64,000 nucleotides of DNA from Octopus vulgaris (lineage: Eukaryota). Below are positions 11,985 through 51,945 of the stretch, one piece after another. Within the stretch, counting starts at the first letter, position 1. Each line of letters begins with the position of its first letter. The translations under genes and the position numbers were made by a program. Under the pieces are notes generated by a model. It had not been told where the DNA came from. It saw only the letters and a program-made list of their open reading frames with translations, and searched no databases. Where the stretch lies: the NCBI GenBank assembly GCA_951406725.2, contig OX597819.1, positions 65,224,001 through 65,288,000 of the forward strand. Direction: 5' to 3'.

Positions 11985-12015
<31 letters not shown>

Positions 12016-12099
12016 TTAAAAATTAAGGGTAAAAATTGATATTAGTCAATTAAAACCAGTGGTCTAGCACATTAAAAAGAATCCGAAGATTAAAATATT

Positions 12100-12505
12100 T
12101 ATATATACCAATTAAGGACTGAACACGAAAAAGTGGACAGTCAACATGCTAGATATAGACGTCAAATCGCCATTCTCCACAAAGATTTTGTTCTCAAATA
12201 AAAATAAAATTCAGCACGACCTAAAGCAATGGATGAGACAAAAGAAATATACGAAATGGAATAATCACCTACGTACCGTACAGTTTCAGCTATTAATATC
12301 ACAAGGATACCTGTAGCTTCGTCAGCGTAGTTTGTTATGAGAATAATCTGTTGTACTAGATGAAAAAACGGTACCGGAGTCCCGCATGCAAAAAGTACGA
12401 CCTATTACTTTCGGATGTATCTTTCAAAATCTTTGTGGAGAATGGCGATTTGACGTCTATATCTAGCATGTTGACTGTCCACTTTTTCGTGTTCAGTCCT
12501 TAATT

Positions 12506-12515
<10 letters not shown>
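12100..12515. mobile_element. Foldback element with ~90-bp perfect inverted arms enclosing a hammerhead
   Basis: 12100-12190 is the reverse complement of 12425-12515. The right end runs into (TA)n. Confidence 0.8.
12269..12330 (-). ncRNA. Minimal type I hammerhead ribozyme
   Basis: CUACG-CUGACGA-AGCUA...UAGCU-GAAAC-UGUACG-GUA|CGUAG. Stems I and II pair perfectly and the core is intact. Confidence 0.8.
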
Positions 12516-33084: not shown

Positions 33085-33800
33085 TGTATGTCATTATTCA
33101 GTTTATTTCAAGATTTCTTGTCAATAGAGAAAGAAGCGGCTTCTAATCAAGATCCAAGGTTCCTTCATTGGAATTTCAACATCAAATATTTGTTTCTATG
33201 TATGTATGTATTTATGTATGTTTGCATGCATTCGTCCATGCAGGCATGTATGTACGCATTTGCGGATTTGTTTGTTTTATGTATGTATACTCATGCATAT
33301 AGTTGTATGTCTTGACATGCTCGTATATATTTAAATGATAATCTCCTGGAAAGTTTTACAGATTTTGACAGTTCCAGTGATGGATTGGATTTCTTCTCCG
33401 AATTAGCTTTCTTCTTTCTGGTTTTGAGAAGCCTAATTTCTTAAGATTGGTATTTAGGCAGTGTGTTAAATATCCTAGGGCCCCAATAATTACAGATATA
33501 AACTTCAACTTGTAATATGGATAGAGTCACTGCAGATTCCTCAATACTTCAATGAAGGTATTCTTTTTCACTGATCTTCACCTTTATCTTAACATCCGCA
33601 GGGCAGCTAATTTCAACAACTGTACACAGATTCTCTTCTCTATCCCCAATCATTATATCAGGTCTGTTGTGCTTATATTTTATTGAGGCCTTCACTGGTA
33701 CATTGCACCAGTATTCCTTCTTATTATGAGTGGCTATGGCTTCTAACATATTGTGAATTCTTATTTCTTTGGCCTCGGGATTATCCTTCTGGCGGATTTC
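33085..33800 (-). mobile_element. 3' fragment of R4/Dong-like non-LTR retrotransposon (restriction-like endonuclease plus 3' UTR)
   Basis: HNRPDIMI...VVEISCPAD...KISEK, then after a disruption LYPYYKLKFISVIIGALG; bordered by (TATG)n. Confidence 0.75.
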
Positions 33801-33839
33801 AGTATGTATGTATGTATGTATGTATGTATGTATGTATAT

Positions 33840-34365
33840 ACGTAATTTTTCGGTTTTATTTAAATATTTCTTGCCAATATTGAAAGAGCCGGTTTTTAAC
33901 CTAGATCTAAGGTACCATCATTGAAATTTCACCGTCAAAACAGGGAATTTTGTTTGTATGTAAGTATATATGAATGTATGTATGCCCAGAGTTGGAGGTT
34001 TTATGTATGTATTTTCATGCATTTATTTGTATATCTAGACGTCCTCATATATATTAAAACGATAAACTTATGGAAAGTTTTACAGATTTTTACAGTCCCA
34101 GTGATTGACTGGATCTGTAGTCTTCGAATAAGCTTCCTCCTTTTTTATTAGTATTTAGGCAGTGTGAAACATTTACTAGTACCCTAATAATTACAGTATG
34201 ATACATATTCTTGTGCCCAGTAATTACATATCCTAATGCCCTCAAAATTACATTTTAATCGACATGGAGTAACTGCAGATTTCAGAGTAGGTATTTTCTG
34301 TTTCGCCGATTTTCAGCTTTATGTCAACATCCGCTGGATAGATGATTTCCAGGACTATACAAAGT
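33840..34365 (-). mobile_element. Second, more decayed 3' fragment of the same R4/Dong-like family
   Basis: Shares GGAAAGTTTTACAGATTTT..ACAGT.CCAGTGAT and GTATTTAGGCAGTGTG with the first copy; flanked by (TATG)n. Confidence 0.6.
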
Positions 34366-42969: not shown

Positions 42970-43003
<34 letters not shown>

Positions 43004-43226
43004 ATCAATATAGGGTGGCAAAAAAAATTTTGTAGAATTCTTTTGCCTCCAGCGGCCTAGTGGGAAAAAATTAAATAGTCATAAACCATTTTTAAGTTCA
43101 ACATTAACAATCAAGGAACGGCCATAATAGGCCATTCACCCACTAGAAATAACAGCCAAAAGCTTTAACCGCAAAATAACGTCAATTCCGTAAACCAGGA
43201 GAAAATTGAAAAACATTTACCCTGTA

Positions 43227-43333
43227 ATTTCTTAGACGATGCACCGTTTCATCTTCTGTTTAATGGAAAACTAACCTGATTAAATTAAATCAAGCCAATC
43301 TACCATAGGCCCTTAGATTCATCAGTAAGAAAT
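43227..43333 (-). ncRNA. Type I hammerhead ribozyme, copy 1
   Basis: Minus strand: AUUUCUUA-CUGAUGA-AUCU...AGAU-GAAA-CGGUGCAUC-GUC|UAAGAAAU. Has an 8-bp stem I, intact core, near-palindromic stem III and a GUC triplet. Confidence 0.88.
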
Positions 43334-43718
43334 AGCCAAACCGGAACAGATATTTTTCACGAGGCATTCTCATTGCTACCTCGTCAATATCTGACCTAAA
43401 ATTTTCAAATCGTCGCACTCGCGCCAAATTTATCGGCAGCAAATAAATATAAGCCGCCGATTCCATTACGGAATTAACCAGAAAATTCATAATTAATCAA
43501 TATAGGGTGGCAAAAAAAATTTTGTAGAATTCTTTTGCCTCCAGCGGCCTAGTGGGAAAAAATTAAATAGTCATAAACCATTTTTAAGTTCAACATTAAC
43601 AATCAAGGAACGGCCATAATAGGCCATTCACCCACTAGAAATAACAGCCAAAAGCTTTAACCGCAAAATAACGTCAATTCCGTAAACCAGGAGAAAATTG
43701 AAAAACATTTACCCTGTA

Positions 43719-43825
43719 ATTTCTTAGACGATGCACCGTTTCATCTTCTGTTTAATGGAAAACTAACCTGATTAAATTAAATCAAGCCAATCTACCATAG
43801 GCCCTTAGATTCATCAGTAAGAAAT
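43719..43825 (-). ncRNA. Type I hammerhead ribozyme, copy 2
   Basis: Same sequence as copy 1, +492 bp. Confidence 0.88.
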
Positions 43826-44209
43826 AGCCAAACCGGAACAGATATTTTTCACGAGGCATTCTCATTGCTACCTCGTCAATATCTGACCTAAAATTTTCAA
43901 ATCGTCGCACTCGCGCCAAATTTATCGGCAGCAAATAAATATAAGCCGCCGATTCCATTACGGAATTAACCAGAAAATTCATAATTAATCAATATAGGGT
44001 GGCAAAAAAATTTTGTAGAATTCTTTTGCCTCCAGCGGCCTAGTGGGAAAAAATTAAATAGTCATAAACCATTTTTAAGTTCAACATTAACAATCAAGGA
44101 ACGGCCATAATAGGCCATTCACCCACTAGAAATAACAGCCAAAAGCTTTAACCGCAAAATAACGTCAATTCCGTAAACCAGGAGAAAATTGAAAAACATT
44201 TACCCTGTA

Positions 44210-44316
44210 ATTTCTTAGACGATGCACCGTTTCATCTTCTGTTTAATGGAAAACTAACCTGATTAAATTAAATCAAGCCAATCTACCATAGGCCCTTAGA
44301 TTCATCAGTAAGAAAT
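44210..44316 (-). ncRNA. Type I hammerhead ribozyme, copy 3
   Basis: Same sequence as copy 1. Confidence 0.88.
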
Positions 44317-44701
44317 AGCCAAACCGGAACAGATATTTTTCACGAGGCATTCTCATTGCTACCTCGTCAATATCTGACCTAAAATTTTCAAATCGTCGCA
44401 CTCGCGCCAAATTTATCGGCAGCAAATAAATATAAGCCGCCGATTCCATTACGGAATTAACCAGAAAATTCATAATTAATCAATATAGGGTGGCAAAAAA
44501 ATTTTGTAGAATTCTTTTGCCTCCAGCGGCCTAGTGGGAAAAAAATTAAATAGTCATAAACCATTTTTAAGTTCAACATTAACAATCAAGGAACGGCCAT
44601 AATAGGCCATTCACCCACTAGAAATAACAGCCAAAAGCTTTAACCGCAAAATAACGTCAATTCCGTAAACCAGGAGAAAATTGAAAAACATTTACCCTGT
44701 A

Positions 44702-44808
44702 ATTTCTTAGACGATGCACCGTTTCATCTTCTGTTTAATGGAAAACTAACCTGATTAAATTAAATCAAGCCAATCTACCATAGGCCCTTAGATTCATCAG
44801 TAAGAAAT
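44702..44808 (-). ncRNA. Type I hammerhead ribozyme, copy 4
   Basis: Same sequence as copy 1. Confidence 0.88.
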
Positions 44809-45192
44809 AGCCAAACCGGAACAGATATTTTTCACGAGGCATTCTCATTGCTACCTCGTCAATATCTGACCTAAAATTTTCAAATCGTCGCACTCGCGCC
44901 AAATTTATCGGCAGCAAATAAATATAAGCCGCCGATTCCATTACGGAATTAACCAGAAAATTCATAATTAATCAATATAGGGTGGCAAAAAAATTTTGTA
45001 GAATTCTTTTGCCTCCAGCGGCCTAGTGGGAAAAAATTAAATAGTCATAAACCATTTTTAAGTTCAACATTAACAATCAAGGAACGGCCATAATAGGCCA
45101 TTCACCCACTAGAAATAACAGCCAAAAGCTTTAACCGCAAAATAACGTCAATTCCGTAAACCAGGAGAAAATTGAAAAACATTTACCCTGTA

Positions 45193-45299
45193 ATTTCTTA
45201 GACGATGCACCGTTTCATCTTCTGTTTAATGGAAAACTAACCTGATTAAATTAAATCAAGCCAATCTACCATAGGCCCTTAGATTCATCAGTAAGAAAT
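45193..45299 (-). ncRNA. Type I hammerhead ribozyme, copy 5 (array boundary coincides with the 5' strand of stem I)
   Basis: Same sequence as copy 1, directly abutting (TA)n at 45300. Confidence 0.88.
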
Positions 45300-45351
45300 A
45301 TATATATATATATATATATCTTTCTGTAGATAGTGAGATAGTTGTGTGTAA

Positions 45352-50864: not shown

Positions 50865-51945
50865 AACGGCTGAAGAAAGCATTCCAACAGTGAAGAAAGG
50901 ATCCGTTAAGAGCTTGGGGCGTGTATACACTGGAACATTGTCAGGAGTCACGGGTTGCAAATTCTGAAACAAGCCGAAGATAGGTTAACATCAATCGATA
51001 GATCAAAAATACAAGGTAAATATAAAAAATGGTGCTCACAGTTCGGCTTGTATCCGCGCCTTTCGTGGCCACTTCTAATAAACGAGGTGACTCTCTCACG
51101 AGTTGAAATAATTGAAAGAAAGTGTAATGTGTTCATTAGAATGTGGTTAGGCCTACCTTGAATATTGAACAGTTCAGCACTCTATCAGAAAATAGGCTCA
51201 TTGCAGTTACCACTGTTAAAATTTAATAAACTAGTGAAGATACAAACGGTGATGATGATCAGGGAGTTGAAGGATATGTACATCAGTCTTAATCTGTCAG
51301 ATGTAAAATCAGCCACGAAGTAGAAAGCAGAAGCATAGAGTGACAATATTCTATCTTCACTTACGCACCGAGTTATGGTGGGTGCAATGCAAATTCGTGG
51401 AAAGGGACTTGGATTTGATGCAGATCGGTTCCTGACCGTTTGCAAGCATGATGCGTCAAAACAAAGAAAACAACGAGTAGAAAACTTTATCTGATCCAAT
51501 GCAACCAACAAAGACAGATGACGAAATGAGAGAAAAATATGTTGGAGTGAGATATGGAGGTGGACTACATCACGGTTAAATTTTCTGATTCATCCATCTT
51601 ATGATGTCTTGCCATCGCCTAAAAATCAAGTAAGACCAGAACGTCTCAGAAAATGATATATGCAGATGCGGAACAGTCGGAACACTGAAACATATTCCTA
51701 CCAACTGTTCACTGGCATTGAGATACAAAATGATATATGCAGATGCGGAACAGTCGGAACACTGAAACATATTCCTACCAACTGTTCACTGGCATGGAGA
51801 TACAATTTGTTCCTAAATGTTATCTCCAATGCTGTAAAGAAGCAAATTACTCTCAACAACATAGCAAACGAACTATTGAAAGAACCAACCAGAGTTATCA
51901 TTACATTCGTAATGGCTAGAAGAATATTCAACTATATCTCATAAC
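50865..51945 (+). mobile_element. Degenerate HERO-like RLE non-LTR retrotransposon fragment (RT thumb to CCHC knuckle)
   Basis: VKSLGRVY, GKYKKWCSQFGLYPRLSWPLL...ERKCNVFIRMWLGLP, CRCGTVGTLKHIPTNCSLA; several stops. Confidence 0.7.

What the first reader, a model, noticed from the sequence alone, without database searches (positions are those of the whole stretch)
43251..43318. Unusually long (68-nt) rod-like stem II in the array hammerhead, with a possible alternative inactive fold
Seen on the minus strand: AUCU-AAGGGCCU-AUGG-UAGA-UUGGCUUGAUU-UAAUUU-AAUCAGGUUAG-UUUU-CCAU-UAAACAGA-AGAU. This can fold as a long rod with an 8x8 internal loop, closed by A-U rather than the usual G-C next to the core. 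The same bases can instead form AUCUA/UAGAU and UUUUC/GAAGA local hairpins that sequester both stem II strands. Inference: the internal loop may supply tertiary contacts, or the alternative fold may switch off cleavage in the circle. Such a long insertion could evade pattern-based hammerhead searches.
Basis: partly seen in the sequence, partly recalled or inferred. Interest (0 to 1): 0.7.

Follow-up and report, generated by a model that had tools for sequence, protein, structure and literature searches.

The report
Long-armed hammerhead ribozyme in a retrozyme
This is the unusually long side arm of a predicted self-cutting RNA in a protein-free jumping repeat; long arms are the commonest hammerhead form my pattern searches found in this animal genome (about 15,000 matches), the standard RNA-family models missed them, and the proposed two-hairpin off-switch is not supported.

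Summary
The 68-nt segment is stem II of a type I hammerhead, present in all five cores of a 491/492-bp array. It is predicted to fold as a rod (-19.7 kcal/mol, z -3.3).

The arm is the family norm: 887 genomic copies have 68 nt, 21 differ, none has under 38. At least six other families carry 42-72-nt stems II (about 15,200 matches in all), with compensatory changes in the two aligned. Rfam misses the array.

A better candidate contact is GGCU (beside stem I) with GGCC (internal loop). It is invariant in 13 of 13 haplotypes and one subfamily extends it by a double change. It may be an activating pseudoknot or an inhibitory fold. The palindromic stem III predicts dimer cleavage. The element is a non-LTR retrozyme with Penelope-like insertions in (TA)n. 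Cleavage and expression are untested.

The scan found this family and long-stem relatives before on other DNA. Long helices II are known in two plant replicons. Verdict: new variant of a known kind.

The parts
42997..45300 (-). Tandem array, 4.7 copies of a 491/492-bp non-coding monomer (retrozyme family F1); a one-armed insertion between (TA)n tracts
   Evidence: no ORF of 120 aa or more overlaps it
43251..43318 (-). Stem II, 68 nt: 4 basal pairs, 8x8 internal loop, 19-position rod with one U.U mismatch, 6-nt loop
43263..43306 (-). Distal rod (stem II positions 13-56); positions 19-51 carry no subfamily-shared variant among 69 distinct monomers
43308..43311 (-). GGCC in the 5' strand of the internal loop; predicted partner of GGCU
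43334..43337 (-). GGCU directly 5' of stem I; predicted loop I-loop II pairing strand
43326..43333 (-). Stem I, 5' strand (8 nt)
43319..43325 (-). Catalytic core C3-A9 (CUGAUGA)
   Evidence: sequence
43235..43250 (-). GAAA core, weak self-complementary stem III and GUC triplet; predicted cut between 43235 and 43234
   Evidence: monomer -0.9, dimer -18.9 kcal/mol
43227..43234 (-). Stem I, 3' strand
43743..43810 (-). Identical stem II, next copy (core at 43817)
44234..44301 (-). Identical stem II (core at 44308)
44726..44793 (-). Identical stem II (core at 44800)
45217..45284 (-). Identical stem II of the 5'-most copy (core at 45291); the array begins at its stem I, so this copy lacks GGCU
42970..43001 (.). 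(TA)n target at the element's 3' end (monomer position about 235-238, one of the family's two fixed ends)
45301..45320 (.). (TA)n at the 5'-truncated end (monomer position 393)

Best explanation
The 68 nt are stem II of a type I hammerhead motif carried in every unit of a dispersed, non-coding tandem repeat, and they are predicted to fold as one stable rod that likely keeps the ribozyme's normal geometry rather than switching through the two proposed hairpins. Shown: intact core, three helices, fixed arm length across the family, and Penelope-like insertion anatomy. Inferred, in order: (1) the basal 4-5 pairs act as the ordinary stem II and the internal loop takes the place of the usual terminal loop 2; (2) GGCC in that loop likely pairs with GGCU beside stem I as a pseudoknot that holds stems I and II side by side; (3) the weak, palindromic stem III makes cutting efficient mainly as a double hammerhead in multimeric transcripts; (4) released monomers likely circularise and are copied into (TA)n by a Penelope-like RT/endonuclease; (5) the distal rod is likely a folding aid or protein handle not needed for the chemistry.
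For: Fold. The rod's outer and inner pairs mostly have P 0.7-1.0 in linear and circular monomers.

Length: 887 copies at 68 nt, 19 at 38-67, 2 at 69, 0 at 8-37, controls 0.

F1 comparison, 13 of the 22 haplotypes aligned (mostly the multi-locus ones): 97.5% of 520 cells pair; pair 5-64 changes A-U to G-C in 4 rows; one subfamily gains pair 6-63.

Sister families: F2 (17 sequences) has 4 of 14 pairs with double changes and F3 (16 sequences) 5 of 10; 0 of 500 shuffles reach either covariation score.

GGCU and GGCC are invariant in 13 of 13 rows while flanks vary. The AUC-GGCC subfamily (L093/094, L105, L108, L159) extends the helix to GGCUG/CGGCC by a change on each side.

Stem III: dimer duplex -18.9 against monomer -0.9 kcal/mol. 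The loop changes UGCA to UAUA and stays palindromic. 30 of 30 sampled long-stem relatives have a self-complementary loop III.

Mobility: in 37 of 46 complete insertions both outer ends are element 3' ends, and 71 of 80 3' ends fall at positions 120-139 or 230-249. This matches the PLE inverted/tail anatomy and two RT start sites in PMC8557442 and PMC11167929. A young RT + GIY-YIG element with ORFs up to 851 aa is abundant in the genome.
Against: F1 covariation does not beat its shuffle control (44 of 500 for the score, 492 of 500 for pairs with double changes), because the family is young. The window's own subfamily carries two changes that weaken the rod (-19.7 against -22 to -27 in most others).

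Invariance of 8 nt is weak alone (background 54 of 389 columns variable). The GGCU:GGCC extension is one evolutionary event. Comparable helices were not found consistently in other families (L344 has a 6-bp candidate).

Without pseudoknots the active fold is 2-5 kcal/mol above the ensemble in 10 of 10 subfamily contexts.

No genomic sign of cleavage in F1: 0 of 107 5' ends at positions 487-8. The 20 junctions at the cut site among 28 matches lie within my rough expectation of 7-22.

No homology between F1 and the one PLE family examined. A10.1-U11.1 is expected to slow cleavage (recalled).
Confidence: 0.65

Rival explanations
1. GGCU:GGCC is an off-switch, not an activator: it forms a nested helix that opens stems I and II, so finished circles and monomers stay uncut and cleavage happens only in dimers or during transcription.
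For: In the window's subfamily the nested helix has P 0.79 with stems I and II at 0.08-0.09, and it is in the MFE of the circular monomer. satRPV has a long, internally looped helix II (PMC1636495 Table 1) and needs a double hammerhead (PMC6466107); its inhibitory loop-loop pairing is recalled, not read.
Against: The nested form is at P 0.06 or less in 7 of 10 subfamily contexts, although GGCU and GGCC are kept in all. ViennaRNA cannot draw the pseudoknot, so the nested form may be its stand-in. Stem I-II pseudoknots activate in tested hammerheads (PMC3088659).
Confidence: 0.25
2. One reading: hairpins AUCUA/UAGAU and UUUUC/GAAGA sequester both stem II strands and shut cleavage off in the circle.
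For: Both complementarities exist. Pair 52-64 of hairpin 2 shows one double change, completed in the window's subfamily. One sister subfamily lengthens hairpin 2 (alternative fold -15.9).
Against: Hairpins alone -0.1 and +0.7 kcal/mol. Fold probability 3e-7 and 0.000 in the circle. The gap to the rod is at least 7 kcal/mol in 22 of 22 haplotypes. 14 of 130 cells in the two hairpins are unpaired, and the double change is reached by 88 of 500 shuffles.
Confidence: 0.04
3. The rod is selected for a job outside catalysis, for example as a sequence-specific handle for the Penelope-like protein or a host dsRNA-binding protein, and the hammerhead merely tolerates it. This is compatible with the best explanation but shifts the weight.
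For: Stem II positions 19-51 show no shared variant among 69 distinct monomers, where about 4-5 would be expected from 54 of 389. Long arms recur in many families. In PMC11167929 a PLE hammerhead cleaved only with protein present, and cleavage was not needed for insertion in vitro.
Against: Arm sequences differ between families, and a canonical 14-nt-stem family with 353-bp period is also mobile here. No binding data.
Confidence: 0.3
4. The F1 hammerhead is a slow or dead relic, and the arrays spread from linear read-through transcripts without cleavage.
For: A-U closing pair; no excess of 5' ends at the cut site; 8 of 9 Xenopus retrozymes tested did not cleave (10.64898/2026.07.22.740005).
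Against: The core varies across subfamilies only at N7 and at GUC/GUA, the tolerated positions, while 54 of 389 other columns vary. Note that my patterns required an intact core. The stem III palindrome is kept.
Confidence: 0.1

Closest known systems
Animal non-LTR retrozymes (Cervera & de la Pena 2020, PMC7229834: passages and section 14 read, supplement not readable; Li et al. 2026, 10.64898/2026.07.22.740005: parts 1-3 of 5 read)
   Same: Non-coding tandem units each with a type I hammerhead, dispersed copies, weak palindromic stem III, strongly self-paired monomer (z -5.0), PLEs in the same genome.
   Different: Stem II is 68 nt rather than about 4 bp plus a short loop; A-U closing pair; the 492-nt monomer exceeds the 170-400 nt of Cervera (within the 51-972 bp of Li); circular RNA not shown here.
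sCYDV-RPV (+) and CChMVd (-) hammerheads (PMC1636495 Table 1 footnote; PMC3705267 passage; PMC6466107 passages)
   Same: Long helix II; in sCYDV-RPV, segments separated by internal loops and cleavage as a double hammerhead.
   Different: Single plant RNA replicons (type III topology, recalled) with shorter arms (5+4+4 bp in sCYDV-RPV); here type I, genomic, in many families and thousands of copies.
Pseudoknotted hammerheads (Perreault et al. 2011, PMC3088659, passages read)
   Same: A base-paired contact of 4 bp or more between the stem I and stem II regions, predicted in about 40% of hammerheads.
   Different: Here the stem II partner is an internal loop capped by a 44-nt rod; the contact is predicted only.
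PLE hammerheads and PLE insertion anatomy (PMC4209133 parts 1-2 of 4; PMC8557442 passages; PMC11167929 parts 1-2 of 4)
   Same: Inverted 5'-truncated arm, two fixed 3' ends, (TA)n targets, helix II longer than canonical.
   Different: Their helix II is 6-8 bp and their tail 30-40 bp; here the arm has about 23 pairs, the two ends are about 106 nt apart, and there is no ORF.

Membership tests
Type I hammerhead ribozyme | Core C3-U4-G5-A6-N7-G8-A9, G12-A13-A14, A15.1-U16.1, NUH triplet | tested here: met
   CUGAUGA...GAAA...GUC in 5 of 5 copies
Type I hammerhead ribozyme | Three helices, II and III closed, I open | tested here: met
   Stem I 8 bp, stem II 4 bp plus rod, stem III up to 4 bp; the active fold is 2-5 kcal/mol above the nested-only ensemble
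Type I hammerhead ribozyme | G10.1-C11.1 (usual, not obligatory: PMC3088659 reports a U.U case) | tested here: not met
   A-U in 11, G.U in 1, A.C in 1 of 13 haplotypes; sister families F2 and F3 have G-C
Type I hammerhead ribozyme | Tertiary contact between stem I and stem II regions | tested here: inconclusive
   GGCU:GGCC invariant in 13 of 13, extended in one subfamily; role unknown
Type I hammerhead ribozyme | Site-specific self-cleavage | not testable with these tools
   Genomic 5'-end proxy inconclusive for F1
Rfam RF00163 Hammerhead_1 (detection model, not a biological criterion) | Score at gathering threshold | tested here: not met
   No hit in the window; none at E<=10 in L011, L082, L341, L350, L346 or L165; 24.3 bits for L344; 32.2 bits for the canonical L371, itself below the 34-bit cut-off
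Non-LTR retrozyme | Two or more tandem units, each with a type I hammerhead | tested here: met
   Five cores, four full monomers of 491/492 nt
Non-LTR retrozyme | No protein coding | tested here: met
   No ORF of 120 aa or more over the array
Non-LTR retrozyme | Dispersed insertions; PLEs in the genome | tested here: met
Non-LTR retrozyme | Homology to a PLE pseudo-LTR | tested here: inconclusive
   No match better than E 0.2 to six loci of the one PLE family examined; other PLE families not examined
Non-LTR retrozyme | Expressed as circular RNA | not testable with these tools
   Only contigs available; no holder on record as RNA

The most novel reading that the evidence does not exclude
A large, undescribed class of animal type I hammerheads has opened loop 2 into an internal loop and carries a 40-70-nt cargo hairpin, like a natural aptazyme. 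In this family the internal loop forms a Watson-Crick pseudoknot with the stem I flank, and that same helix, or a protein bound to the invariant rod, gates cleavage and circle formation. More than 15,000 such motifs in one genome escape the standard models.
Probability: 0.3. Interest if true: 0.7.

Novelty: new variant of a known kind. Interest (0 to 1): 0.43.

Why it matters
Hammerhead censuses built on short stem II models would miss most of the hammerheads my patterns found in this genome: about 15,200 long-stem matches against about 1,200 short ones (the patterns were not exhaustive). The families give natural, covarying test cases for two questions: whether loop 2 contacts survive as an internal loop, and what a large stem II cargo does for a retroelement RNA. 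The single finding, a two-hairpin switch, does not hold, and retrozymes and long helices II are each known.

Tried and rejected

Short-stem version of this family: none at 8-37 nt. The looser 25-54 nt pattern gave 80 matches against 83 controls, a few of them deletion copies.

A-to-I editing of the rod as a source of variants: not supported; singletons A>G 3 against T>C 9 in 69 monomers.

Cut-site signature in genomic 5' ends: inconclusive for F1. In one search there was 1 at the site against 0-4 at six clean control offsets; three offsets were swamped by low-complexity matches.

Expression: no RNA holder listed. Four guessed-RNA runs hold contigs over the region but are not shown to be RNA.

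The three metagenome matches showed no convincing stem I. Organisms B-D hold related contigs but haplotypes cannot be phased.

Master element: the RT + GIY-YIG family found shares no 3' homology with F1.

A general loop I-loop II helix across families: not found consistently.

Literature: nine searches showed no description of long-stem-II type I hammerheads in animal retrozymes. Not seen: the supplement of PMC7229834, which may show such motifs, and PMC353766. Descriptor limits were not found in the PMC3088659 supplements. Passages of PMC13725137, PMC6155905, PMC3185516 and PMC12382478 were read; 'long helix II' in PMC13725137 means 6-8 bp.

Full report
Observation. The minus strand of 42997-45300 is a 4.7-copy array with period 491/492. 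Each of its five cores reads CUGAUGA, 68 nt, GAAA, stem III, GUC, with an 8-bp stem I across the predicted cut. The finding is the 68 nt of the last copy.

The proposed switch. The two hairpins score -0.1 and +0.7 kcal/mol alone. The best fold with both is 9.2 kcal/mol above the rod, P 2.8e-7. It stays at or below 4e-6 in 22 of 22 haplotypes and is absent from the circular monomer. In folded prefixes hairpin 1 peaks at P 0.28 and vanishes once the rod closes. On 13 subfamily haplotypes each hairpin has 89% of cells paired. The shuffle control reaches this 88 times in 500, so I treat it as chance.

Family context. The genome (2.8 Gb, 227 contigs) holds 887 copies with this core, stem III and exactly 68 nt, 19 with 38-67, 2 with 69 and none with 8-37. 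A pattern ending in CGUA adds 2,996 matches (control 23), a mix of GUA-cutting F1 subfamilies and a second family, F2, with 60-76-nt stems II. A pattern for G10.1-C11.1 hammerheads with a 4-nt loop III gives 11,358 matches at 42-72 nt (control 30) and 1,095 at 14-41 nt (control 51) (only the first required a non-G first loop letter). A minimal PLE-type family appears among 134 matches (control 44). Of 30 sampled long matches, 24 fold with z below -2, 29 have at least 3 basal pairs, 30 have a self-complementary loop III and 20 have a stem I of at least 4 bp. By eye the sampled loci fall into at least six further families. F2 (17 of 22 haplotypes aligned) and F3 (16 sequences) show compensatory changes that no shuffle reaches; kin share changes, so this overstates independent events. 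F1 is too young: 97.5% of cells pair and pair 5-64 covaries, but the score is reached by 44 of 500 shuffles.

Detection. Rfam found nothing in the window. At E up to 10, RF00163 missed five of six long-stem loci, gave the sixth 24.3 bits, missed the minimal-type locus too, and gave a canonical neighbour 32.2 bits, also under the cut-off.

How it likely works. Canonical animal type I hammerheads have a 6-bp helix I, a 4-bp helix II with interacting loops, and a short palindromic helix III that works in dimers (PMC4209133). F1 and F2 keep the basal 4-5 pairs and place an internal loop where loop 2 would be. In F1, GGCC in that loop is complementary to GGCU just 5' of stem I, antiparallel when the stems lie side by side (my inference from geometry). 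Both are invariant in 13 of 13 haplotypes while flanks vary, and four insertions of one subfamily extend the helix by a change on each side. Such pseudoknots activate other hammerheads (PMC3088659). The same pairing can also form in nested fashion and open stems I and II: P 0.79 in the window's subfamily but 0.06 or less in 7 of 10 contexts. Stem III is -0.9 kcal/mol in a monomer and -18.9 as a dimer, and its palindrome survives a double change, which predicts double-hammerhead cleavage. Positions 19-51 of the arm have no subfamily variant in 69 monomers against about 4-5 expected, which hints at a sequence-specific role.

Mobility. Insertions sit in (TA)n. In 37 of 46 complete ones both outer ends are element 3' ends, and 71 of 80 3' ends lie near monomer positions 132 or 238. 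F2 ends near 195 and 300. This matches PLE inverted arms, tails and two internal RT start sites (PMC8557442, PMC11167929). A young RT + GIY-YIG element with ORFs up to 851 aa is abundant but is not homologous to F1, so the helper is unidentified. Cleavage in vivo is not shown: F1 5' ends are not clearly enriched at the cut, whereas 4 of 35 F2 ends lie within 6 nt of it (about 0.7 expected; BLAST boundaries are approximate). Expression could not be tested.

Comparison and novelty. The element meets the sequence criteria of non-LTR retrozymes (PMC7229834; 10.64898/2026.07.22.740005). Long helices II are recorded for sCYDV-RPV (+) and CChMVd (-). I found no paper describing them in animal type I hammerheads; the unread supplement of PMC7229834 could bear on this. 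Earlier notes of this scan report the same family on other pieces of this genome and long-stem relatives in other genomes; they are unchecked AI notes and no support.

Noticed in passing
window 12251-12335 (minus), inside an element at about 12015-12508: A second type I hammerhead of another family: 31-nt stem II also closed by A-U, 5-6 bp stem I, GUA triplet, in a (TA)n-flanked element with inverted arms.
   Followed up: partly
F1 monomer positions 217-238; F2 (L097-L100) about 172-195 and 277-298: A similar short motif (ACCC then an AU-rich run with UUG or AUU) precedes fixed 3' ends in both families, and a 17-nt similarity (E 0.035) lies upstream; possibly shared RT initiation signals.
   Followed up: partly
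L135, L291-L332 (e.g. L323:2665-5217): Very abundant, young, (TA)n-flanked Penelope-like element (RT, CxxxxCxxC linker, GIY-YIG; 20,111 first-look candidates; ORFs up to 851 aa) with no canonical sense-strand hammerhead found by my pattern; a CUGAAGA...GAAA-like string lies antisense in its 3' end.
   Followed up: partly
L367, L371-L377: Canonical retrozyme family, 353-bp period, 14-nt stem II with a UCAAUA loop; a ready comparator for the long-stem families.
   Followed up: partly
L098, L141, L154, L156: Four of 35 F2 5' ends map within 6 nt of the predicted cut, a weak hint of cleavage in vivo.
   Followed up: partly
L344:1495-1570: A family with a 45-nt stem II has a 6-bp complementarity between the stem I flank and the stem II internal loop, like F1's GGCU:GGCC.
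   Followed up: no
window 33549-33917 (minus): Fragment resembling a restriction-like endonuclease of a non-LTR retrotransposon (motif recalled; no Pfam hit at 1e-3).
   Followed up: partly
window 51650-51805: Two near-identical copies of a 77-bp unit.
   Followed up: no
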